This document shows, piece after piece, positions 5,782 to 63,556 of a stretch of 64,000 bases of DNA. Position 1 is the first letter of the stretch. Each line of letters begins with the position of its first letter. The stretch is from the sequence record PP620640; one strand, 5' to 3'. The position numbers were made by a program, and so were the translations under genes. This DNA comes from Escherichia phage fKMPT1. The notes under the pieces are model-generated. The model was not told the DNA's origin. It made no database searches and saw nothing but the letters and a program-made list of their open reading frames with translations.

Positions 5782-6015
5782 TTAAAATGATAAGTCAATA
5801 TTGATACGTTCACCCTTAAGGACTCCTGTACGGTCCCTTGCAATCTTACCGTCAACAATAAGGATATGCGCAGACCTTAAAGATTCACTATTAAAACCTT
5901 TTACGAACTTACTAGGCATAACTACAATAAGCATCTCTTGAATCAACTCTGGAGTGTAGCAGTTGTCGTGAAGTTGCTGAATAACGTCTGCAAGTGTCAT
6001 TTTTGATGTCTCCAA
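5782..6015 (-). CDS. small protein, paralog of 6203-6421
   Basis: 77 aa; shares MTL..E..QL...Y...I..M.IV......K.N.E.LR...I.I..GKIA.D.TG.LKGER.NI with 6203-6421. Confidence 0.5.
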   Translation of the reverse strand: METSKMTLADVIQQLHDNCYTPELIQEMLIVVMPSKFVKGFNSESLRSAHILIVDGKIARDRTGVLKGERINIDLSF

Positions 6016-6206
6016 TACTCAATGTCAATAAGTTCTTGTGCAATGCTTTTCAGATTACCTTTCAAGAAAACCTTCTCAGAATCTGAAAGAGATGAATTGT
6101 CAATTAACCTGTTCATTCTCTCAAACAACTTCTGCTTACGATTCTTGATAGTTTCCTTTGAAGCACCTTTCATCATCGCTGCATGGGTTCTTCCACGGTG
6201 GCTCAT
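5997..6206 (-). CDS. hypothetical basic protein
   Basis: 69-aa ORF between the two paralogs. Confidence 0.45.
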   Translation of the reverse strand: MSHRGRTHAAMMKGASKETIKNRKQKLFERMNRLIDNSSLSDSEKVFLKGNLKSIAQELIDIEYWRHQK

Positions 6207-6421
6207 AGTAAAGTCTCAATGTTTACACGCTCACCTTTTAAGTAGCCTGTCTTGTCTTTTGCGATTTTGCCTCCAGCAATAAAGATATCAACTCTACGTA
6301 GAACTTCAGGGTTTACCTTCAAATTCCTACAGCTACTGCAAAGAACAATAAACATCCCTTCAATCTCTTTTTGAGAGTAACCTGCACATTGCAACTGAAC
6401 TTCAATCTCTGAAAGCGTCAT
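6203..6421 (-). CDS. small protein, paralog of 5782-6015
   Basis: 72 aa; see paralog. Confidence 0.5.
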   Translation of the reverse strand: MTLSEIEVQLQCAGYSQKEIEGMFIVLCSSCRNLKVNPEVLRRVDIFIAGGKIAKDKTGYLKGERVNIETLL

Positions 6422-6472
6422 GTGACCTCCTATATAAGATATTGTATATGGTACTCTTCCATGAGCACCTTG

Positions 6473-6976
6473 TCAAGATAGTTTTGCAAACTCTCCGTGG
6501 AGTTTTATAGCAGCTTCACAGTAAGCTTTATGGGCTTCTTCAGGTGTATCAAATAGACCAAGTGATGACCTTTTACCTCTGCATGTTATAGTCGCCCTCC
6601 ACTTATTGCAGTCTTTAAAGTAATGAACACCCTTGTAACCTGATTTGTTAGTCGTCTGCTTTACCCTGTTTTGAGCGTTTCCATATTTATCGGTCTCCCT
6701 AAGATTAGAAATGTGATTATTACTCCTGTTGCCATCAATGTGGTCTATCATCTTAGTAGGTTTGTAACCATGCTCAAACCACCAAACAAGGTGATGCACT
6801 TTTATTACAACATCTTTGAATTTAAGCACTTTGTAACCATAAGCATCACTTCCTCCGGCAACCTGACCAGCTTTAGCTTGTCTATTCCTATCATACCTGT
6901 TGTAGAAGACCCCTTTATCGGGGTCGTAAATAAAGTTGTCCTTGTAATCTTGAAGTGTTAGTGAACGGCGTACCAT
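6473..6976 (-). CDS. HNH homing endonuclease with AP2-like DNA-binding domain
   Basis: HLVWWFEHGY...DHIDGNRSNNHISNLRE HNH motif plus GYKGVHYFKDCNKWRA AP2-like segment; overlaps 3' end of the polymerase gene. Confidence 0.8.
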   Translation of the reverse strand: MVRRSLTLQDYKDNFIYDPDKGVFYNRYDRNRQAKAGQVAGGSDAYGYKVLKFKDVVIKVHHLVWWFEHGYKPTKMIDHIDGNRSNNHISNLRETDKYGNAQNRVKQTTNKSGYKGVHYFKDCNKWRATITCRGKRSSLGLFDTPEEAHKAYCEAAIKLHGEFAKLS

Positions 6977-7509
6977 GTTTTACCTACCTTACCAGTACCC
7001 GTGACAAGTGTCTTACTCTTTAATCCAAGATTTTTTGATGCTTGACCATACATTCTATCAATAATCTCCTTAACATCTGGTACAGCTTTTGTTGGAACCT
7101 CTAAAGAAACTTCGTCGTGGTAACTACAGACCCATCTAGCACCAATAGCTGGTTTCCTACCATTTAGAACTGTAAGTTTTCGCTCTGTTAACTCTCTATT
7201 AGCCAAGTTAATCCCCTCATTCTGTACCTGCGCCTCACTACCCATGAGTGTGAAATTCAATAACTTATGTGGAGATTTACACCATAACCACGCTCCAGCG
7301 ACTTTGATATAACCACCTTTGGCAATTGCAGAAGTTTTTCCAAAAACCTCTTCAAGTGCTTTCTTAGTTGCTTTGAAGTCTTCCTCTAACCTATCAAGCA
7401 GCTTTTTAATCTTAGGTAGACGTACAAAGTAAGTTTGTTTAGTCAATGCACCTTCTTCCGTAGATGATGCCTTGATAGTTTTTGCAAACTTCTCGTCTCC
7501 AGCACCGAA
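6958..7509 (-). CDS. DNA polymerase (family A), exon 2 / C-terminal segment
   Basis: Begins FGAGDEK (motif B continuation, compare T7 YGAGDEK), contains motif C YHDEV; track ORF starts at a TTG so no obvious independent start. Confidence 0.8.
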   Translation of the reverse strand, partial: FGAGDEKFAKTIKASSTEEGALTKQTYFVRLPKIKKLLDRLEEDFKATKKALEEVFGKTSAIAKGGYIKVAGAWLWCKSPHKLLNFTLMGSEAQVQNEGINLANRELTERKLTVLNGRKPAIGARWVCSYHDEVSLEVPTKAVPDVKEIIDRMYGQASKNLGLKSKTLVTGTGKVGKTWYAVH

Positions 7510-7785
7510 CAATACATCTGGTCAATACACTCGCAAGGTGTACCAGTTCTCTTATGAACTTCTCCGCATTTCTACGGAGTGTCGGACTATATCACGTAGC
7601 AGGATGCTACCGTTGCACTTGGGAATGGTCATTAGCTTACCACCCTACTCTACTCAGTTCATACGTTAAGTATGCTTTTCGATAGTCTCTGAACGTTCCT
7701 CTCAAGAGGCTTCGCTGCTGATTACCGTATCTTCTCAGACTTAGGCTTCCAGCAATTCACAACGTTTTACATGCGCCACTGACGC
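7510..7785 (-). ncRNA. putative group I intron interrupting DNA polymerase motif B
   Basis: 276-nt ORF-less insertion between ...KNGIY and FGAGDEK...; upstream exon ends in U, intron ends in G; GUAAA near intron 5' end could pair with exon UUUAU (P1). Confidence 0.45.
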
Positions 7786-9924
7786 ATAAATGCCATTTTT
7801 GGCTTTCTTACGACCTTTTGTAATCTCGTGGAGAAGTTCCTCATCCTGTGTATACCTACAACGAACAATATCTTCTTCCTTGTTCAGACCAAAGTAAATA
7901 CTGTTCAGTGTATGTGCATCAGTACCTGTGTATACTTCATAGAGGTCATTCTCAGCATCATAACGAAGGTACTTGTCAGTTTCTGGATTGAGGTACTTAT
8001 CAAGATGCTTGCAATAGTATCTTCCATCCTCTTGCTTGGTAAATTCTACTGACTCTTTACCTTGTGTTACCGCTTTAGTGAACTCTTCATCACCCATAAA
8101 GTTACAAAGAAGAACTAGCTGTGCTGAGTTTTGGTCTACAGAGATGATATCTGTCCCCTCTTCACAAGTCCACACCTCCCTCATAGGTGCTCCATAGACA
8201 GCAGCACCAGACGGTACGTTTACAATACCATATTGTGTCATACGTCCAGTTGAAGTACCAAATACCATTGCACCAGCACTAAGGCGACCATCAGGACGAA
8301 TCTGGTTCAACCAACCTTTTTCATCATCCTTTGAGTTCTCAATAGTTCTGCGTCGGTGCATCAAAGTATAGTACTTAGCAATCTTCTGTCCAAGCTCACC
8401 TTCAATCGTATCATAAGATGATTCAGTAAGTTTTGGTGAAGTACGGATTAAGCAAGGTTCAAGCAAATCTGTGTATTTCTTCACAGACCAGTTATGTTCA
8501 ATGTACTGGACACCTTCATGTTCAACATAACTCAAACCACACCTTTCAACCATCTCATCCCACTTAGGATGCTTTGTAATCATCTTTTTGTTGTCTTTGA
8601 AACGACAAACTTTGACAGGACGACCATCTGAGTCTTTCTTGTAGTTCCAGTCATCTGGAATCCAACCAACTGATTTCAAATAGTCTTTCACAACTGCTAC
8701 CTGAGTCATACGAGAAACTTCGAACTCAATTGGTGTATATGGTGCATCAATCAAACCTGTGTAGCGACTTGACTCAAGCTCAAAGTGGTTAACAACATGG
8801 CTGTTATAGTACTTCACAGTTTTAACTGTTTTTACTGGCTTCCAATCTTTGCACTTCTTACCAATCTTTGCATTCAACTCATTGCAAATTGCACGAGCAT
8901 CCTTCATTGCTACAAAACCTTCCTTGTACTCTTCACCAGTTACAGAGTTGGTTGGTGTATAGCAATTCCGCTTTTCAATGTTAAAAATCTTTGTAGTTGG
9001 CTTACCAAATGGCTTGATTTCATATGTCTGCATCTCACCGTTACGTACCTGCTGACGATACTTTGTCTTAGGGTACTTGGTAATTCTCTTCAGTCCATCT
9101 GCGTGACCAAATGCTTCAACATACTCATTCCAAGCTTTTGCAAACTCTTCTCCAGTGACTTTAACTTTGGTCTTGATAGTTGGAGGAAGATGTGGTTCAA
9201 CTTCTGAAGCAAGCTCATTAGTCAACTTGTCAAGTTCCTTTACATGGAACTCCATAAGCTCTTTATCAGCTTTCCAACCATTGATAGCTTGTTGACTCAT
9301 CCAGAAAGATGTTTCTTTAGCTCGCATGTAGGTTTCATAAGTATCTACGCCACACTTCTTCAGCTTGAGATATTCATTATCCAGTGCACGTTTAGTTTTG
9401 GCGTTAATACGGATATCTTCTACAACACGAGTGAAGATTTCTGCATTCCACACACCCCAATGTTCAATCTCTGGTTTACGTACACCGACACGAGCACCCC
9501 ATGCAGCCAAGCCATGAGCACCTTTATAGCCTTTTGGAGTTGGTCTATCCATCCATTGAACACGAGATTGGATAAGAGAATCCTGAAAGAAATTACTCCA
9601 CGGCTTACACTTTGGATTATCAAAGTTCCACAAATCAGGTGCAATGTGATTGAAAACCCACCAGTCATACCCCAGACCATTATGGATGCAAAGTCGTTTT
9701 GCCTTTAACGCAAACTCAACACCTTCACGCAAGCCACCCTTAATGTACTTGGTATACTTGTGACCGAGGATAGGCTCATCTGTAAAGACCCATACAGGTG
9801 GCTCTTCATCGTCAGATTTATAGTCTGCGAAAGCCATTACGTGTACTTTAGTGAACTCAAGGAGTAAACCATCAGTTTCTGTATCGCCAACTAAATGTAA
9901 GTTTTTAAAATCTACGTTTTCCAT
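7786..9924 (-). CDS. DNA polymerase (family A) with 3'-5' exonuclease domain, exon 1
   Basis: DTETDG exo motif; motif A VDQNSAQLVLL; start taken at MENVDF with upstream GGAG RBS; frame runs 14 codons into insertion before stop at 7741. Confidence 0.85.
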
Positions 9925-10181
9925 TTTTACTCCCTCTAAAATCATTAACCACATACATTACTGCAAAAAATTATAAAAAGCAAGTTGACAATGTACTTGA
10001 CAAGGTGTTAATCTTTGCGAAGTGGGTTTTTACTTAAAAGGTTACTTAACAGTTTAACTATACAGATACTTTAAAACTCTTAAAAGATTATTTAATAGTT
10101 TTTAAAAAGCTTTAAAGTATAACGTATAGAATACGTTAAGATAAAAGATTAAAACTTAATAGTTACTTAAAAGAGGCTTAC

Positions 10182-58350: not shown

Positions 58351-58427
58351 CTCTGTTTAGCTCAGCTTGGTAGAGCGTTCCGTTTGGGGCGGTAAGGCCG
58401 GAGGTTCAAGTCCTCCAACAGAGACCA
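58351..58427 (+). tRNA. tRNA-Pro (anticodon TGG)
   Basis: hand-folded cloverleaf, GGTTCAAGTCC T-arm, encoded CCA. Confidence 0.7.
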
Positions 58428-58434
58428 AATTAAT

Positions 58435-58512
58435 GTTCCAGTAGACAAAATGGTAAAGTCACCACTCTTTCAAAGTGGATATTTGAGGGTTCAAATCCCT
58501 TCTGGAACGCCA
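58435..58512 (+). tRNA. tRNA-Glu (anticodon TTC)
   Basis: perfect acceptor and anticodon stems, encoded CCA. Confidence 0.7.
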
Positions 58513-58603
58513 GTTTTGACAGAAGACCAATTGCAGCAAACTTAATCTTATTCATCTGACACGAAATCGGACAAAGAAGAGATTTGGTCTGGTCATTAAG
58601 AAT

Positions 58604-58680
58604 TGCGGGTATAGAGAAAGGGCGTCTCACATGTCTCATTAGCATGGTATCGGCAGGTTCGACTCCTGCACCCGCCTCCA
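58604..58680 (+). tRNA. tRNA-Met (anticodon CAT), 1:72 mismatch
   Basis: T-arm and anticodon arm clear; acceptor 5' boundary uncertain. Confidence 0.55.
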
Positions 58681-58763
58681 AATTTACAGAAGACCGTTTA
58701 CAGCAATATTTATTAAATTTTTAGCGGAAAAATTGAAAGATACGGTCTGGTAATACTAAACAT

Positions 58764-58840
58764 GGTTAGGAAGCACATAAGGTATGTGCGGTCGCCTGTT
58801 AAGCGAATGGCACAGGGTTCGAATCCCTGACTAACCGCCA
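58764..58840 (+). tRNA. tRNA-Asn (anticodon GTT)
   Basis: cloverleaf with perfect T-stem, CCA encoded. Confidence 0.65.
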
Positions 58841-58909
58841 AATTTAGGAGAGAAGCGATTGCTCACCGATTTGTAAGGTGCAAGTCCTTAGCCTGAATAG
58901 AAATTAAAT

Positions 58910-58997
58910 GTGTCGTTATCCCGTAGATGGTAGCGGTGGGGACTGTAAATCCCTTGTCATTGAGACTCGGTAGGTTCGACTCCTACACGGCACACCA
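58910..58997 (+). tRNA. tRNA-Tyr (anticodon GTA), long variable arm
   Basis: 88 nt type II structure, anticodon loop CTGTAAA. Confidence 0.7.
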
Positions 58998-59003
58998 AAT
59001 AAA

Positions 59004-59081
59004 GGTTATGTAGTTTAATCTGGTTAAAATACTCCCCTGTCACGGGAGATGATGAGGGTTCGAATCCCTTCGTAACCGCCA
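59004..59081 (+). tRNA. tRNA-Asp (anticodon GTC)
   Basis: anticodon arm ctccc-CTGTCAC-gggag. Confidence 0.7.
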
Positions 59082-59537
59082 AATTATAATAAGTATTTCA
59101 AAATGATGTTTTGAGAGGGCTATTTAGCCCCTCCCTTAAAGAGTTCTTACGAGTATTCTTTAAAGGAGCAGAAGACCAAATTCAGCAAGAACGTATGAAA
59201 TTTCAAGCCAATTTAATTTTGAAAATTTAAAACTTGGTCTGGCTCAACAAATTTACAGAAGACCGTTTACAGCAAAACTTAAACAATCTATTTCTCGGTA
59301 AAGAAAAGGCGAAGGTTCGATTCCTTCACTCGGCAGATGTCGAGTTGGTGTAATGGTAGCACTTAAGATGATAAACAACGGTCTGGTAATTGTCTTTGCA
59401 GTAGCTTATGTGGCTAATTATGTCGTCCCATGAGTGCCGATGAATTTCCTTAGCATGATTCTAGATTAGCTTAATAGGAAATGACTCTACAGACCCTTTA
59501 GCAAGGTCTGCGTAGGTTACTGCAAAGATAATTTAAT

Positions 59538-59613
59538 GGAAGTGTAGCAGAATGGTGATGCGGCAGACTTTTAATCTGACAGGCGATGGGTTCGAATCCC
59601 TCCACTTCTACCA
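59538..59613 (+). tRNA. tRNA-Lys (anticodon TTT)
   Basis: cloverleaf; weak T-stem; paralogous to 60859-60934. Confidence 0.55.
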
Positions 59614-59617
59614 ATAT

Positions 59618-59694
59618 GGTTCAGTCGCAGATAAGGTAATGCAGGGGTTTCATAAGCCCTATGAATGTGGGTTCGATTCCCATCTGAACCTCCA
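59618..59694 (+). tRNA. tRNA-Met/Ile2 (anticodon CAT)
   Basis: perfect acceptor stem, anticodon loop TTCATAA. Confidence 0.65.
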
Positions 59695-59696
59695 AT

Positions 59697-59771
59697 TGTG
59701 GGTTAGCATAAATGGTAATGCAAACGGCTGATAACCGTTAGAAGAGGGTTCGATACCCTCACCTACAACCA
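59697..59771 (+). tRNA. tRNA-Ile (anticodon GAT)
   Basis: anticodon arm aacgg-CTGATAA-ccgtt perfect. Confidence 0.7.
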
Positions 59772-59786
59772 ATTTCAATAAAGTTG

Positions 59787-59815
59787 TTGACATTGAGATG
59801 TGACTACTTTATAGT
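59787..59815 (+). promoter_or_regulatory. sigma70-like promoter inside tRNA region
   Basis: TTGACA - 17 nt - TATAGT. Confidence 0.55.
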
Positions 59816-60109
59816 AACTGAAAATGATTCAGCATATGTATAATTCAAACACCAATACATGAGCGTTAGACGTAACACAATGTGGGGAAATTTGTTGTAC
59901 ATATTCTGAATAGTTTTCGTTGCGTAGCGTCTATTTTGCAAAGTTAAAATAAATGCAAACGACAATGTTTTTCTGGCAGTAGCTTGATAGGCTAAACACC
60001 AGTGAGGTCTTCCAACCCCTCATCAAAGAATTTGGCGTACTAGCCCACGGTATGATTAATAAGGTGGGCATCTTTAAGGGCTTTCTAAGAGAGTCTTTAA
60101 AGATAATTA

Positions 60110-60191
60110 CGGGGCGTATCTCAGCTGTCTTCTAAACAGCCGTTAACCGAGTAAGTGGAGTATGCGGGTTCGAGTCCTGCCGCCTCGACCA
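60110..60191 (+). tRNA. tRNA-like gene, non-canonical (no D-arm; anticodon-like hairpin with TCT)
   Basis: perfect acceptor and T-arm with CCA; internal hairpin gctgt-CTTCTAA-acagc; only 7 nt where D-arm should be. Confidence 0.4.
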
Positions 60192-60334
60192 ATTTAGTTA
60201 GCAGATTACTTAGACGACCTTATCGGGTCTTCCTGTAGGGAGGTGGTCTGTATCTCATGTTTTCCAGAACATGTAAATAATCTGAGAAGGGGCTTTACAG
60301 TGTTGTGAAAATACGGTAAGCTTCGAACTATAAT

Positions 60335-60417
60335 GTGGGACGATGTTAAGACTCTAAGGCATGAGCAACGGCTTCCAACACCGTTTCAAAGGGGTTCAAA
60401 TCCTCCGTCCCATGCCA
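60335..60417 (+). tRNA. tRNA-like gene, isotype undetermined (9-nt loop hairpin containing CCA/TCC)
   Basis: acceptor/T-arm/CCA canonical; internal hairpin aacgg-CTTCCAACA-ccgtt; D region irregular. Confidence 0.4.
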
Positions 60418-60430
60418 AAGTCTTATTAGG

Positions 60431-60518
60431 GGTAGGTAGCGGCTAATGGTAGCCAAACTGTCTTGAAAACAGTTGCCACTGTAGAGATACGGTGAGGGTT
60501 CGACTCCTTTACTTACCG
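60431..60518 (+). tRNA. tRNA-Ser (anticodon TGA), long variable arm; CCA not encoded
   Basis: anticodon arm actgt-CTTGAAA-acagt perfect; 20-nt variable arm. Confidence 0.65.
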
Positions 60519-60773
60519 CCTAATAAGATTTACACCGTCCATGCTCGCTCGCATTTTCGGTTTATCCCTCGTGTTGTCGTACACTTTGATAAAGCACCTA
60601 GTAGGTGTCACGGAGAAGAGATAATATCAAGCTCTCCAAAGGTTCTAGTCACCGGATTAAACAAGACTATGCAAAGACCTATTTAGGTCTTTTTAGAGGG
60701 CTTCTAAGGTTATTACAGCTTGTTGTGGAACCTTGTTGCTTAGGTTCTTAGAAGTTCTCTAAAAAGATTTAAT

Positions 60774-60851
60774 GGGAGATTGACGGTAATTGGTAAACCT
60801 ATCTCGCTTAGAACGAGATGTTTGAGGGTTCGAATCCCTTGTCTCCTACCA
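60774..60851 (+). tRNA. tRNA with Leu anticodon TAG, short variable arm
   Basis: anticodon arm tctcg-CTTAGAA-cgaga perfect; type I length; A73. Confidence 0.55.
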
Positions 60852-60858
60852 AATTAAT

Positions 60859-60934
60859 GCAGGTGTAGCAAAATGGTTATGCGGCTGACTCTTAATCAGT
60901 AAGACGATGGGTTCAATTCCCTCCACCTGTACCA
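60859..60934 (+). tRNA. tRNA-Lys (anticodon CTT)
   Basis: anticodon loop CTCTTAA; encoded CCA. Confidence 0.6.
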
Positions 60935-60940
60935 AACATT

Positions 60941-61016
60941 GGGGTCATAGTTTATATGGTTAAAATTCGAGTTTTGCAAACTTGGGAACTGAGTTCAATT
61001 CTCAGTGACTCCACCA
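60941..61016 (+). tRNA. tRNA-Ala (anticodon TGC)
   Basis: G3:U70 wobble in acceptor stem, anticodon loop TTTGCAA, perfect T-stem. Confidence 0.75.
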
Positions 61017-61022
61017 ATTAGT

Positions 61023-61097
61023 GCATCCATAGTTTAAACGGGAAAATTACAGTCTTCCAAACTGAGGTTGAGGGTTCGATTCCCTCTGGATGCTCCA
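61023..61097 (+). tRNA. tRNA-Gly (anticodon TCC)
   Basis: perfect acceptor stem, U73 discriminator, anticodon loop CTTCCAA. Confidence 0.7.
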
Positions 61098-61103
61098 AAC
61101 AAT

Positions 61104-61180
61104 GCTGCTTTCGTATAATTGGCTATTACACATCCCTTGTAAGGATGGAGATGCGGGTTCAAGTCCTGTGAGCAGCACCA
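61104..61180 (+). tRNA. tRNA-Thr (anticodon TGT)
   Basis: anticodon arm catcc-CTTGTAA-ggatg perfect. Confidence 0.7.
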
Positions 61181-61275
61181 ATTTAGAGGTCAAGTGAAAG
61201 ACCGCTGGTGTCAACTGAAGACCGTAACAAATTCCACGGAGTTGAGTTAGCGGCACAACTTCAGACCTCTTTCAT

Positions 61276-61350
61276 ACTCGCTTAGTTTATATGGTAAAAC
61301 ATCACCCTTACAAGATGAAGAAAAAGGTTCAAGTCCTTTAGTGAGTACCA
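61276..61350 (+). tRNA. tRNA-Val (anticodon TAC)
   Basis: perfect D- and T-stems, anticodon loop CTTACAA. Confidence 0.65.
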
Positions 61351-61351
61351 T

Positions 61352-61429
61352 GTTCCAGTATCCCAATTGGCAGAGGATGCAAGCTCAAACCTTGTACTAG
61401 TGACGGTTCGAATCCGTCTTGGAACACCA
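61352..61429 (+). tRNA. tRNA with Leu anticodon CAA, short variable arm
   Basis: anticodon arm gcaag-CTCAAAC-cttgt; type I length; A73. Confidence 0.55.
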
Positions 61430-61543
61430 ATTTTAGGAGAGCACTATGAGTGATAAGTCAATAGCAAAAAAGTTTAGAGCGTCATACCTAAACAGACGTA
61501 AAAACAAAGATTGTGAAAAACTGTATGGTGTTCTTGTAGGTAA

Positions 61544-61619
61544 GCAGGATTAGTTCAAATGGATAGAGCAGCAGTCTACGAAGCTGTTAATAGGGGTTCG
61601 AATCCCTTATCCTGCGCCA
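61544..61619 (+). tRNA. tRNA-Arg (anticodon ACG)
   Basis: perfect acceptor stem; anticodon loop CTACGAA. Confidence 0.65.
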
Positions 61620-61638
61620 ATTTAAAGAGGCTATTTAG

Positions 61639-62196
61639 ATGAGATATTTGAAGTATGCTTCATGGATTTTCTTAGCTTTGTTAGAGCCATTTGCAGCAAT
61701 CTTAGCAGTTATCTTAGCACCTTTCGTGGTTCCATTCTACAGTGAGAAGAAAGGACATCTACCTTTCGGCTTCAGATGGATGGAGACATACGACAACCCA
61801 ATTGATGGTGATGAAGGTCATGTCGAACGATGGGCTAAGATTAGAAAGATTGGTAAGCTGGGTGTCTACATGCAGAGAGTTGGATGGCTCTGGAGAAACA
61901 AAGCTTATAACTTCTCTTACCATGTATTAGGAAGAGATGTAAAAGATGTTACTAAGTGGAAAGGCAATATCAACGTAAGTTCTAACCCTGAAGATAATCA
62001 GACAGGTTATCTCCTAATGTGGAACAGTAATGCTTGGGGATTATTCGCTTTTATCCCATCAATTAAAGTCTTTGGTAAACAATTCTACTGGAGAATTTAT
62101 ATTGGGTGGAAGCTAAAAAGTGTTGTCCCAGAAGAAAGAGCATTCTCAAGGGAAAGAGTTATGTTGGCATTCTTTATTCATCCACTAAGAAAGTAA
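61639..62196 (+). CDS. membrane protein embedded in tRNA array
   Basis: 185 aa; N-terminal hydrophobic helix, aromatic-rich C-terminus, AAAGAGG RBS. Confidence 0.55.
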   Translation: MRYLKYASWIFLALLEPFAAILAVILAPFVVPFYSEKKGHLPFGFRWMETYDNPIDGDEGHVERWAKIRKIGKLGVYMQRVGWLWRNKAYNFSYHVLGRDVKDVTKWKGNINVSSNPEDNQTGYLLMWNSNAWGLFAFIPSIKVFGKQFYWRIYIGWKLKSVVPEERAFSRERVMLAFFIHPLRK

Positions 62197-62204
62197 AGAT
62201 TTAA

Positions 62205-62280
62205 AGGGGATTAGTTTACAAGGTTAAAACCTCGGTCTTTGAAATCGAAGAAGTTGGTTCAATTCCAACATCCCCCGCCA
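62205..62280 (+). tRNA. tRNA-Gln (anticodon TTG)
   Basis: perfect D-, anticodon and T-stems; 1:72 mismatch. Confidence 0.65.
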
Positions 62281-62282
62281 AT

Positions 62283-62361
62283 GCTCCATTACTCCAATTG
62301 GCAGAGAGGCCAGACTTAAAATCTGTGTTATGTATCGGTTCGAATCCGATATGGAGTACCA
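62283..62361 (+). tRNA. tRNA with Leu anticodon TAA, short variable arm
   Basis: anticodon loop CTTAAAA; perfect T-stem; A73. Confidence 0.55.
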
Positions 62362-62366
62362 AATTT

Positions 62367-62442
62367 AGCGGTATAGCATAACTGGCAATGCAGCAGTCTC
62401 TGAAGCTGTCCTATTAAGGTTCAAATCCTTATGCCGCTGCCA
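62367..62442 (+). tRNA. tRNA-Gln (anticodon CTG)
   Basis: perfect D- and T-stems; anticodon loop CTCTGAA. Confidence 0.65.
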
Positions 62443-62473
62443 CTTCTAAGGGTTCTTACGAGAGTCCTTAAAT

Positions 62474-62549
62474 GTGGCCTTATCATAAACGGTAATGACC
62501 CATGCTGTGAACATGGTCTATACGGGTTCAAATCCCGTAGGTCACCCCA
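62474..62549 (+). tRNA. tRNA-His (anticodon GTG)
   Basis: all four stems near-perfect; C73 discriminator. Confidence 0.75.
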
Positions 62550-62554
62550 ATTTA

Positions 62555-62631
62555 TAGTCCAAGTAGCTTATATGGTTAAAGCGCGTGTCTGAAAAACATG
62601 AGAAGAGGGTTCAAATCCCACTGGACTACCA
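62555..62631 (+). tRNA. tRNA-Phe (anticodon GAA), boundaries approximate
   Basis: anticodon arm cgtgt-CTGAAAA-acatg; acceptor/D junction irregular. Confidence 0.5.
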
Positions 62632-62646
62632 ATTTCAAAGGTGCTT

Positions 62647-63382
62647 AATGAAAGAGATGACAGAACAAGGTAAGGAGATTTTTAATCTCTTAAAAACTGG
62701 TAAAGGGTTTTCTAACCCCCTTATTACTGGTGCAGCAGTTCTCGGTGGAACCGTAGCTGCCTCTACATCACTTGTAAGCTCTATTAGCTCTGTAACAGAC
62801 CCTACAATAAAAGATAAGCTTGTTGCTGCTGGGCTTACAACAGTTCTGCTTAGCAGCTTTACAACGAGTCTGACAAGCACTACAGCAACTACTAAGACCC
62901 TAACAGACTATGGTCAAAAGTCCATTGATGAGTTTTCATCACGTATGCAGGTAGCAAAAGGTTATTCTAATGCTATGGGTGCAGCAGGTGAACAAGTTGG
63001 CTGTACACCATTTAGTGGTATTATGGGTGTTGCTACAGAGTATGGTCAAAAAGCTATGGATACGATTAACAGCGCACTAGATGGCGTTAATGATGTATTA
63101 AGCGACTTACAAGATGCTATTGACAAAGGTCTTGATACTGTTTCTGATTTAGCTAACCAAGCTGTTAGCAAGATTAATGAAGGTATCTCGAAGATTACAG
63201 CTTATGCAGATGAAGTTGTGCAGATGATTGAAGAAGAAGCTGCCCTTATTGCAGAGTACCTTAAAACGAATATCAATGGGTTCTTAGCAGGTATCTTACC
63301 AGACTGGTTTGATGATGCTTGTAAAACTGGTGTGATTGATACTATTGCAACACCAGAAATGAAGAACGCATTACAGAAATAA
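62647..63382 (+). CDS. hypothetical Ser/Thr/Ala-rich protein
   Basis: about 245 aa from ATG after AAAGG; track ORF start 62585 overlaps tRNA-Phe and is unlikely. Confidence 0.5.
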
Positions 63383-63383
63383 C

Positions 63384-63476
63384 GGAAGATTAACCCTAAA
63401 AGGTAAGGGAGCAGTTTGCTAAACTGCCAGTAGCTGAGAAATCGGTGTACCAGTTCAAGTCTGGTATCTTCCTCCA
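63384..63476 (+). tRNA. tRNA-Ser (anticodon GCT), long variable arm
   Basis: 93 nt; anticodon arm gcagt-TTGCTAA-actgc perfect; T-stem perfect; CCA encoded. Confidence 0.7.
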
Positions 63477-63480
63477 ATTT

Positions 63481-63556
63481 GAATCCGTGACAGAAATGGC
63501 TATGTGCCTGTCTGCAAAACAGGTTTATAAGGGTTCGAGTCCCTTCGGATTCTCCA
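63481..63556 (+). tRNA. tRNA-Cys (anticodon GCA)
   Basis: perfect acceptor stem, U73, anticodon arm cctgt-CTGCAAA-acagg. Confidence 0.7.

What the first reader, a model, noticed from the sequence alone, without database searches (positions are those of the whole stretch)
6958..9924. Family-A DNA polymerase interrupted inside motif B by a 276-nt ORF-less insertion (candidate group I intron)
The upstream frame reaches ...RKKAKNGIY and then runs into unrelated sequence and a stop. The downstream ORF resumes with FGAGDEK... and motif C YHDEV, and starts only at a TTG. Joining after the U at 7786 and the G at 7510 restores ...KNGIY|FGAGDEK..., matching the T7 pol motif B pattern. The intron-side GUAAA could pair with exon UUUAU to form P1. 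An HNH-AP2 homing endonuclease lies immediately downstream, overlapping the polymerase 3' end.
Basis: partly seen in the sequence, partly recalled or inferred. Interest (0 to 1): 0.7.

Follow-up and report, generated by a model that had tools for sequence, protein, structure and literature searches.

The report
Group I intron in phage polymerase
The DNA polymerase gene of this Felix O1-like Salmonella phage is interrupted by a small self-splicing group I intron with no gene of its own; the call is correct but the splice sites were off by a few bases, and the same intron was already noted in a sister phage, so it is an ordinary, well-understood kind of element.

Summary
The window is 100% identical to Salmonella phage fBSPA4 (genus Felixounavirus). 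Its family-A DNA polymerase gene (minus strand) is split inside motif B by a group I intron: Rfam RF00028 scores 59.9 bits against a cut-off of 50. The true intron is 267 nt, 7781..7515. It follows U7782, which forms a U·G wobble in a 6-bp P1 (exon AUGCGU with intron GCGCAU), and it ends at G7515. A 5-bp P10 also forms. Splicing gives a 906-aa product that aligns gap-free with FelixO1 polymerase. A hand-built P1–P10 model has only standard pairs and is supported by compensatory changes. P7.1/P7.2 indicate subgroup IA. About 96 of about 259 Felix-like records carry the intron in three forms: 801–802 nt with an Endonuclease_7/HNH gene in loop L6a, 311 nt (gene deleted), and 267–268 nt (this one). 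Compared with near-isogenic intron-less P219, the window shows a short block of silent changes around the junction that is needed for P1/P10. The downstream HNH-AP2 gene is real but not linked to the intron. The phage Meda genome announcement (2019) already reports this intron. Splicing itself is untested.

The parts
7782..9945 (-). DNA polymerase exon 1. GenBank starts it at 9945. The ATG at 9924 has the better Shine-Dalgarno sequence, AGAGGGAG. The exon ends ...AAU GGC AUU UAU GCG U.
7515..7781 (-). Group I intron, 267 nt, ORF-less, subgroup IA-like (has P7.1/P7.2, no P2). It starts CAGUGGCGCAU and ends ...CCAGAUG.
   Evidence: Rfam RF00028 59.9 bits; boundaries from intron-less alleles; structure
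6958..7514 (-). DNA polymerase exon 2. It starts UA UUG UUC GGU GCU GGA GAC GAG (..LLFGAGDE..), contains motif C YHDEV, and includes the stop codon.
7771..7787 (-). P1: exon AUGCGU (7787..7782) pairs with the internal guide GCGCAU (7776..7771). The splice-site U7782 forms a U.G wobble with G7776. The loop CAGUG (7781..7777) is the P10 strand.
   Evidence: invariant in 5 Felix variants
7510..7514 (-). P10 exon strand: UAUUG pairs with intron CAGUG (7781..7777), 5 bp.
7693..7754 (-). P4-P6 domain: P4 7754..7749 with 7721..7716; P5 with an 11-nt-receptor-like motif CCUAAG (7745..7740) / UACGG (7729..7725); P5a with GNRA loop GAGA (7736..7733); P6 7715..7713 with 7695..7693; P6a 7709..7706 with 7701..7698; loop L6a UUGA (7705..7702), which is where sibling introns carry the endonuclease gene.
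7611..7764 (-). P3: CGUUGUG (7764..7758) pairs with UGCAACG (7617..7611). It encloses P4-P6, the 5' strand of P7, P7.1 (7674..7660) and P7.2 (7645..7621).
7584..7689 (-). P7 (guanosine-binding helix, pseudoknotted with P3): GAGACUA (7689..7683, A7688 bulged) pairs with UAGUCC (7589..7584). P8 hairpin at 7610..7596 lies between the strands.
7515..7579 (-). P9 hairpin with GAAA tetraloop (7579..7562, loop 7572..7569), P9.1 (7559..7546), P9.2 (7545..7519), terminal G at 7515.
6473..6976 (-). Free-standing HNH_3 + AP2 endonuclease gene (167 aa) overlapping the polymerase stop by 19 nt. It is a neighbour of the intron, not part of it.
   Evidence: Pfam; weak match to I-HmuI 1u3e; distribution

Best explanation
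Window 7781..7515 (minus strand) is a 267-nt ORF-less group I intron of the IA type. It interrupts the essential family-A DNA polymerase gene of a Felixounavirus inside motif B (the O-helix), after the first base of the Leu codon equivalent to T7 F528 (E. coli Pol I L764). Inferred mechanism: the pre-mRNA folds into P1 and P3-P9.2. An external guanosine bound in P7 attacks after U7782, which sits in a U.G wobble of P1. The terminal G7515 then replaces it, P10 aligns exon 2, and the exons ligate to ...UAU GCG U|UA UUG UUC..., giving an uninterrupted 906-aa polymerase (899 aa from the ATG at 9924). The intron has no endonuclease gene. It is the minimal form of an intron that in sister phages carries an Endonuclease_7/HNH homing-endonuclease gene in loop L6a. 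It most likely spreads or persists by DNA recombination, either homing driven in trans by the endonuclease of ORF-bearing siblings or ordinary recombination during co-infection, carrying a short exon tract with it. Shown here: the sequence features, fold, covariation, reading-frame restoration, distribution and recombination tract. Inferred: catalysis and mobility.
For: (1) Rfam RF00028 scores 59.9 bits vs a gathering score of 50, E=1.1e-12, and is the only such hit in the 64 kb. (2) Intron-less FelixO1 and P219 define the excision exactly: the spliced CDS is 2721 nt, the same length as in FelixO1, and the 906-aa product aligns with no gaps at 98.3% and 99.0% identity. (3) The homology-defined sites have the canonical chemistry: U.G at the 5' splice site within a 6-bp P1, a terminal G, and a 5-bp P10. 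(4) All 81 pairs of the hand-built model are standard. Across 5 Felix variants 100% of cells pair, against 27-46% when partners are slid, with compensatory C-G to U-A changes in P6a and P8. Against the related N4-like phage RNAP2 introns (Rfam 92-94 bits), 10 of 38 core pairs show double compensatory changes and 1 of 152 cells is non-standard. (5) A GAAA loop in L9 plus a CCUAAG/UA(U/C)GG receptor in P5 is conserved in all. (6) Without splicing, exon 1 stops 13 codons into the intron. The 'TTG start' of exon 2 is simply the Leu codon and has no Shine-Dalgarno sequence, and motif B would be cut between Y526 and Y530 (T7 numbering). (7) The same intron occurs at the same site in about 96 of about 259 Felix-like records. 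One of them (Meda) is annotated as a joined CDS and described as an intron. (8) Five of the 11 exon bases in P1/P10 differ silently from intron-less alleles, and the intron-less versions would break P1 (2 of 6 pairs lost, U.G lost).
Against: No experimental evidence of splicing exists for this phage or, as far as I could find, for any Felixounavirus. The minimum-free-energy fold of the intron alone is not unusually stable (z = -1.39), as expected for a pseudoknotted, tertiary-structure-dependent ribozyme. The Rfam alignment misplaces P1/P2 into exon 1 with low confidence, because the intron lacks P2. In the window the P5 receptor reads UACGG where most relatives have the canonical UAUGG, which could weaken the L9-P5 contact. 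Helices in the distant relatives were assigned by hand.
Confidence: 0.9

Rival explanations
1. The intron fold is real but the RNA needs a protein cofactor, or splices inefficiently, so that splicing limits or times polymerase expression instead of being phenotypically neutral.
For: The window's P5 receptor deviates from the canonical UAUGG seen in relatives. The intron lacks P2. Bastillevirinae polymerase introns splice at different times in the infection cycle (PMC11878797).
Against: The core, P1, P10, the terminal G and the tertiary-contact motifs are all intact. The phage was isolated as a viable lytic phage with this essential gene.
Confidence: 0.05
2. The polymerase is a genuinely split gene that makes two polypeptides (737/735 aa and 184 aa) which assemble without RNA splicing. 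This is how fBSPA4 and most GenBank records annotate it.
For: GenBank annotates two 'DNA polymerase' CDSs in fBSPA4, tootiki, REP5, BPS15S6 and others.
Against: The break falls in the middle of the O-helix. The second ORF starts at a TTG that is simply the Leu codon and has no ribosome-binding site. The intervening 267 nt is a conserved ribozyme fold with compensatory changes. Intron-less alleles are colinear.
Confidence: 0.03
3. The splice sites are those proposed by the first reader (after U7786 and G7510; 276-nt intron; P1 = UUUAU/GUAAA), giving ...KNGIY|FGAGDEK....
For: That join is in frame and also follows a U and a G. UUUAU/GUAAA can pair on paper.
Against: It deletes Ala-Leu-Leu, which is present in every intron-less homologue and in T7 motif B (G527-F528-L529). 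The alternative site gives a longer P1 and a 5-bp P10.
Confidence: 0.01

Closest known systems
DNA polymerase intron of Salmonella phage Meda (MH586731; Neff et al. 2019, PMC6486253)
   Same: It is the same element: 97.4% identical over 267 nt, at the same site and with the same flanking codons. [quoted passage not shown]
   Different: The Meda paper gives only that sentence, with no intron class, boundaries, structure, insertion-site mapping or distribution. fBSPA4 itself is annotated as two separate CDSs.
Group I introns in family-A DNA polymerase genes of SPO1/SP82/Bastille/Pf-WMP3 (site 674, E. coli numbering), phiL7 (676) and T7-like PhiI/W31 (881)
   Same: They are group I (IA2 for Pf-WMP3) introns in a conserved, functionally critical part of a phage Pol I-type polymerase. 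They are associated with HNH-family endonucleases and occur in ORF-bearing and ORF-less versions (PMC3428280; PMC3984707).
   Different: The insertion site here is in motif B (equivalent to T7 F528 / E. coli L764; plus the textbook equivalence T7 Y526 = E. coli F762). It is none of the three sites listed in PMC3428280. The endonuclease in sibling introns is an Endonuclease_7-type (PF02945) protein with N-terminal zinc ribbons, not an I-HmuI-type enzyme.
Group I introns in RNAP2 genes of N4-like phages (Escherichia phage vB_EcoP-ZQ2, Erwinia phage MIF8)
   Same: They are the closest sequence relatives of the catalytic core outside Felixounavirus (74-78% identity over about 120 nt). They share the P3-P9 architecture, P7.1/P7.2, the GAAA L9 loop and the CUAAG/UAUG receptor.
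   Different: They sit in a different host gene, have a P2, and carry an HNH_3-AP2 ORF downstream of P9. They are not annotated as introns in GenBank.
Phage T4 introns (td, nrdB, nrdD/sunY) and trans-homing of the defunct nrdB intron by MobE (PMC2790892)
   Same: They are small IA-type phage introns in nucleotide-metabolism genes. An intron with a missing or defunct endonuclease can be mobilised by a neighbouring free-standing HNH endonuclease. From memory, the sunY intron likewise lacks P2 and has an extended P9 region.
   Different: There is no evidence here that the neighbouring HNH-AP2 gene acts on the polymerase gene, and its allele is mostly found with intron-less polymerases.

Membership tests
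Group I intron (Rfam RF00028) | Covariance-model score at or above the curated gathering score | tested here: met
   59.9 bits vs 50, E=1.1e-12, minus strand 7844..7562
Group I intron (Rfam RF00028) | Conserved core helices P3-P8, including the P3/P7 pseudoknot and a P7 with a bulged base | tested here: met
   All pairs are standard. 100% of cells pair in 5 variants with 2 compensatory pairs. 10 of 38 core pairs are compensatory against the N4-like relatives.
Group I intron (Rfam RF00028) | 5' splice site after a U that forms a U.G wobble in P1 with an internal guide sequence | tested here: met
   U7782.G7776 within AUGCGU/GCGCAU
Group I intron (Rfam RF00028) | Terminal guanosine at the 3' end, and a P10 pairing with exon 2 | tested here: met
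   G7515; CAGUG/UAUUG, 5 bp
Group I intron (Rfam RF00028) | Excision restores an uninterrupted reading frame colinear with intron-less homologues | tested here: met
   906 aa, no gaps against FelixO1 and P219
Group I intron (Rfam RF00028) | GTP-dependent self-splicing | not testable with these tools
   Needs an in-vitro transcription/splicing assay or RT-PCR
Subgroup IA (IA2-like) group I introns | Extra hairpins P7.1 and P7.2 between the 5' strand of P7 and the 3' strand of P3 | tested here: met
   P7.1 at 7674..7660 and P7.2 at 7645..7621, all standard pairs. The same elements are present in ZQ2 and MIF8. Not scored against subgroup-specific models.
Mobile group I intron with an intron-encoded homing endonuclease | An endonuclease ORF inside a peripheral loop of the intron | tested here: not met
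   There is no ORF of 30 aa or more in the window's intron. Sibling introns (JH2, Si3) carry an intact 160-aa Endonuclease_7 ORF in L6a.
Collaborative homing pair (ORF-less intron plus adjacent free-standing endonuclease, as in PhiI) | A free-standing endonuclease gene next to the intron-containing gene | tested here: met
   The HNH_3+AP2 ORF 6473..6976 overlaps the polymerase stop codon
Collaborative homing pair (ORF-less intron plus adjacent free-standing endonuclease, as in PhiI) | The endonuclease cuts intron-less alleles at or near the intron insertion site, and the intron co-occurs with the endonuclease | tested here: inconclusive
   Cleavage specificity is not testable here. Co-occurrence is not seen: 15 of 17 records with this allele are intron-less, and intron-bearing phages carry other HNH-AP2 alleles or none.
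Family A (Pol I-type) DNA polymerase | Motif B (R..K...Y/F...Y/F G) and motif C (HDE) | tested here: met
   phmmer against T7 DNA polymerase, E=3.8e-5. GRKKAKNGIYALLFGAGDEK aligns to T7 517-536, and YHDEV aligns to VHDEI.

The most novel reading that the evidence does not exclude
The ORF-less intron is still an active mobile element. It would be driven in trans, during co-infection, by the Endonuclease_7-type homing endonuclease of ORF-bearing sibling introns, or by a neighbouring free-standing HNH-AP2 enzyme. The block of silent codon changes at the junction would then serve both as the P1/P10 pairing partner and as the immunity determinant against that endonuclease. On this reading, the near-isogenic pair fBSPA4 (intron-plus) and P219 (intron-minus) records a very recent homing or loss event with a co-conversion tract of roughly 37 to 160 nt, at an insertion site (motif B, O-helix) not among the three catalogued for family-A polymerases.
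Probability: 0.35. Interest if true: 0.4.

Novelty: already known. Interest (0 to 1): 0.22.

Why it matters
The practical value is for annotation. Most of the roughly 96 Felix-like phage genomes that carry this intron, including this one, list the essential polymerase as two separate genes. The exact splice junction given here (U7782|U7514) allows a correct joined CDS. Felixounaviruses are widely used as biocontrol and therapy candidates, so correct gene models matter. Biologically, the genus offers a compact natural series: empty site, endonuclease-bearing intron, endonuclease-deleted intron and minimal intron, plus a near-isogenic intron-plus/intron-minus pair. That series could be used to study the homing cycle and trans-mobilisation. 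This extends well-known phage intron biology and is not a new kind of element.

Tried and rejected
(2) Rfam's hit coordinates (7844..7562) are not the intron boundaries. The model forces P1/P2 into exon 1 at low posterior probability and stops before P9.1/P9.2. (3) Thermodynamic folding alone is uninformative: the intron's MFE z-score is only -1.39, and MFE cannot represent the P3/P7 pseudoknot. With exons added, MFE does recover P1, P3-P6, P7.1, P7.2, P8 and P9. (4) A MAFFT alignment with the distant RNAP2 introns misaligned P7.2, P3' and P8, so I assigned helices by hand. A context-anchored regex check for P5 failed to match because of my pattern design; the P6 3' strands were confirmed. (5) I considered linking the downstream HNH-AP2 gene to the intron and rejected it on distribution. 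(6) I looked for intron-less alleles with intron-type flanks, which would be the footprint of RNA-mediated precise loss, and found none among the 40 best junction matches. (7) I looked for the same interruption in more distant Ounavirinae (Erwinia, Pectobacterium, Citrobacter, Shigella phages), and all are uninterrupted. (8) The Flavobacterium phage Fpv20 polymerase intron is at a different site and has no Rfam gathering-score hit. (9) Literature searches for Felixounavirus or VpaE1 plus intron, and for motif B plus group I intron, found nothing beyond the Meda note. (10) A permissive Rfam scan found no second intron in the window.
Full report
IDENTITY OF THE WINDOW. The region 6400..10000 is 100% identical to Salmonella phage fBSPA4 (OR711204.1). 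It matches 259 Felix O1-like phage records at 80-100% identity. In fBSPA4 the polymerase is annotated as two separate 'putative DNA polymerase' CDSs followed by a 'putative HNH endonuclease'.

CHECK OF THE OBSERVATION. On the minus strand, ORF 7741..9954 ends ...GRKKAKNGIYASVAHVKRCELLEA*. ORF 6958..7512 starts at TTG with MFGAGDEKFAK... and contains SYHDEV. ORF 6473..6976 overlaps the polymerase stop codon. Pfam finds HNH_3 (E=3.7e-12) and AP2 (E=1.5e-10) in that last ORF. These parts of the observation are correct.

The boundaries of the insert are not correct. FelixO1 (NC_005282) and P219 (PV659053) have uninterrupted 2721-nt polymerase genes. Across the site they read AAT GGC ATC TAC GCC CTG TTA TTT GGA GCC GGA GAC GAG, which translates to NGIYALLFGAGDE. 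Joining U7782 to U7514 gives a 2721-nt CDS whose 906-aa product aligns without gaps to FelixO1 (98.3%) and P219 (99.0%). The intron is therefore 7781..7515, 267 nt. No other register both restores Ala-Leu-Leu and puts a U before the 5' splice site and a G at the 3' end.

WHAT IT IS. Rfam's group I intron model RF00028 matches the minus strand at 59.9 bits (gathering score 50, E=1.1e-12). It is the only intron hit in the 64 kb, even at E<=0.01. Rfam's coordinates (7844..7562) are not the boundaries. The intron has no P2, so the model's P1/P2 is forced into exon 1 at low posterior probability, and the model ends before P9.1/P9.2.

I built the structure by hand on the homology-defined boundaries:
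- P1: exon AUGCGU (7787..7782) with intron GCGCAU (7776..7771), with U7782.G7776 at the splice site.
- P10: intron CAGUG (7781..7777) with exon-2 UAUUG (7514..7510).
- P3: 7764..7758 with 7617..7611.
- P4: 7754..7749 with 7721..7716.
- P5, P5a, P6 and P6a follow within the P4-P6 domain.
- P7: GAGACUA (7689..7683, one bulged A) with UAGUCC (7589..7584).
- P7.1: 7674..7660.
- P7.2: 7645..7621.
- P8: 7610..7596.
- P9: 7579..7562, with a GAAA tetraloop.
- P9.1 and P9.2 follow, and the terminal G is at 7515.

All 81 pairs are standard pairs. P7.1 and P7.2 lie between P7 and P3', which is the hallmark of subgroup IA, the usual phage type. This is an inference from topology; I did not run subgroup-specific models. 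P5 carries CCUAAG...UACGG. Most relatives have CCUAAG...UAUGG, the canonical 11-nt GAAA-tetraloop receptor, which suggests an L9-P5 tertiary contact (the motif identification is from general knowledge).

TESTS OF THE FOLD AGAINST VARIATION. Across five Felix-type variants, 100% of 405 cells are paired, against 27-46% when partners are slid by 1-3 columns. There are two compensatory C-G to U-A changes (P6a and P8, in phage garuso). Loop L5a varies only among GNRA tetraloops (GAGA, GUAA, GGAA). These variants are close relatives, so the statistics are weak (23 of 500 shuffles reach the observed value).

More divergent relatives exist. The closest cores outside the genus are unannotated group I introns in the RNAP2 genes of N4-like phages ZQ2 and MIF8 (Rfam 91.8 and 94.4 bits). 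With helices assigned by hand from the conserved context, 10 of 38 core pairs (P3, P5, P5a, P6, P6a, P9) show double compensatory changes and only 1 of 152 cells is non-standard. The MFE z-score of the intron alone is unremarkable (-1.39). I give that little weight for a pseudoknotted ribozyme.

WHERE IN THE PROTEIN. phmmer aligns the spliced protein to T7 DNA polymerase (E=3.8e-5). GRKKAKNGIYALLFGAGDEK aligns to T7 517-TRDNAKTFIYGFLYGAGDEK-536, which is motif B, the O-helix carrying R518, K522, Y526 and Y530. The intron lies after the first base of the Leu codon aligned with T7 F528. By the textbook equivalence T7 Y526 = E. coli Pol I F762, this is codon 764. Published intron sites in family-A polymerase genes are 674 (SPO1, SP82, Bastille, Pf-WMP3), 676 (phiL7) and 881 (PhiI, W31) (PMC3428280). 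This site is none of those. I could not exclude that it has been reported in work outside the searchable library.

WHY SPLICING IS REQUIRED. Unspliced, exon 1 reads 13 further codons into the intron and stops at UAA 7743..7741. The TTG at 7512 is just the second Leu codon of Ala-Leu-Leu and is preceded by GACCAGAUGUA, with no Shine-Dalgarno sequence. By contrast, the ATG at 9924 is preceded by AGAGGGAG. No promoter-like site lies in the intron. A two-polypeptide enzyme would be cut in the middle of the O-helix. Together with the conserved ribozyme, this makes the split-gene reading very unlikely.

DISTRIBUTION AND FORMS. The intron sequence is found over at least 80% of its length in 96 phage records, all Felix-like. 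These include some records labelled Campylobacter phage. More distant Ounavirinae (Erwinia, Pectobacterium, Citrobacter, Shigella phages) are uninterrupted at the site.

Three forms exist:
- 801-802 nt (JH2, Si3, VpaE1, BPS15Q2 and others). These have an intact 160-aa ORF at intron positions 109-591, with zinc ribbons plus Pfam Endonuclease_7 (E=1e-19). Its best solved relatives are Hpy99I and T4 endonuclease VII, which are His-Me/HNH-type nucleases. The ORF sits in the loop of an extended P6a/P6b stem.
- 311 nt (garuso, EC106, S19cd). These retain both ends of that cassette and the GUUAGGA/UCCUAAC stem but have lost the ORF between short CTAA repeats.
- 267-268 nt (this window, tootiki, Meda, REP5, BPS15S6 and others). 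These have a minimal L6a loop.

The 311-nt form is clearly a deletion derivative of the ORF-bearing form. Whether the minimal form is a further deletion or the ancestral state is not resolved.

FOOTPRINT OF DNA-LEVEL EXCHANGE. Within +-15 nt of the junction the window differs from FelixO1 and P219 at 9 positions, all silent, in 8 consecutive codons. Every intron-bearing locus examined has ...TATGCGT|TATTGTT... and every intron-less one has ...TACGCCCTGTTATTT.... Among the 40 best database matches to the spliced junction, all are intron-containing, and no empty site with intron-type flanks was seen.

Five of the 11 exon bases that pair in P1/P10 are among these differences. With FelixO1-type exons, P1 would lose 2 of 6 pairs and the U.G wobble. 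The flanks are therefore functionally tied to the intron.

Phage P219 is near-isogenic with the window. Identity is 96-100% per 100 nt along the polymerase and HNH genes, except for 88% in the block containing the junction. From -23 to +13 the window instead matches intron-bearing REP5, and from +87 onward it is again P219-like and unlike REP5. This is the pattern expected for intron gain or loss by recombination with a short co-conversion tract. The minimum tract is about 37 nt of exon and the maximum about 160 nt.

THE DOWNSTREAM HNH-AP2 GENE. The gene is real and resembles homing endonucleases (weak match to I-HmuI), but it is not intron-linked. Its allele is full-length in 17 records, and, 15 of those have intron-less polymerase genes (FelixO1, P219, ESCO45/50/56, momo, nataliec and others). 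Other intron-bearing phages have different HNH-AP2 alleles (BPS15S6, REP5, garuso) or none (JH2) at that position. The slot after the polymerase gene appears to be an independent hot spot for free-standing endonuclease genes. A role in trans-mobilisation, as described for collaborative homing (PMC3984707) and for T4 MobE with the nrdB intron (PMC2790892), cannot be excluded but has no support here.

WHAT IS KNOWN. The Felix O1 genome paper reports no introns (PMC3185647). That is consistent, because FelixO1 has the empty site. [quoted passage not shown] Meda's intron is 97.4% identical to the window's. I found no paper giving its class, structure, splice junction, insertion-site mapping or distribution.

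VERDICT. The splice sites, intron length, P1 pairing and implied endonuclease link needed correction. The element is a typical phage group I intron that has already been noticed in a sister phage. Interest is low. The modest added value is an exact gene model, a fourth insertion site relative to those catalogued, and a natural series of intron states with a recent exchange footprint.

Noticed in passing
window 58351..63553 (+): A dense cluster of 23 tRNA genes above the Rfam gathering score, typical of Felix O1-like phages. One long-arm tRNA at 60431..60518 scores only 33 bits as tRNA and weakly resembles the tRNA-Sec model (39 bits, below its cut-off).
   Followed up: no
window 9922..9945 (-): GenBank and FelixO1 annotation start the polymerase at the ATG at 9945, which has no Shine-Dalgarno sequence upstream. 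The ATG at 9924 is preceded by AGAGGGAG at good spacing and is the start used in the JH2, Si3 and REP5 records, so the true start is probably 9924 (899 aa).
   Followed up: partly
window 7852..7854 (-): A codon specific to this phage: TAT (Tyr) where FelixO1, P219, tootiki, REP5, Meda and others have GAG (Glu), 24 codons upstream of the intron. It is a two-base non-synonymous change of unknown significance.
   Followed up: no
window 7725..7729 (-): The 3' half of the P5 tetraloop-receptor motif reads UACGG in this phage, whereas tootiki, BPS15S6, Meda, garuso and the N4-like introns have the canonical UAUG(G/C). This may slightly weaken the L9-P5 contact.
   Followed up: partly
window 5782..6015 and 6203..6421 (-): Two small neighbouring ORFs (77 and 72 aa) between the HNH gene and the DNA ligase gene look like paralogues of each other. 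Both end in ...GGKIAKD(K/R)TG.LKGER(V/I)NI.... The number of such small ORFs varies between Felix-like phages.
   Followed up: no
L011 460..1408 (Escherichia phage vB_EcoP-ZQ2) and L012 2455..3394 (Erwinia phage MIF8): Unannotated group I introns (Rfam 92-94 bits) split the RNAP2 genes of these N4-like phages, each with an HNH_3-AP2 ORF after P9. They are the closest relatives of the Felix intron core outside the genus.
   Followed up: partly
L013 2493..3436 (Flavobacterium phage Fpv20): This phage's DNA polymerase is annotated in two pieces separated by about 940 nt containing a GIY-YIG ORF. A 130-nt stretch resembles the Felix intron core (73% identity), but no Rfam hit reaches the gathering score. 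It is probably a divergent group I intron at a different site.
   Followed up: partly
database records GU169904.1 (Staphylococcus phage SA1), MG065664.1 and MG065668.1 (Campylobacter phages A132/A126): These records, attributed to unrelated hosts, contain Felix O1-like polymerase sequence at 94-99% identity. They are most likely mis-assembled, contaminated or mislabelled entries.
   Followed up: no
L003 6137..6575 (Escherichia phage tootiki): In tootiki the DNA ligase is annotated as two overlapping CDSs (64 aa plus the main ORF), so other split or frameshifted genes exist in this phage group. Separately, Meda's paper reports an HNH gene interrupting nrdD and a split polynucleotide kinase.
   Followed up: no
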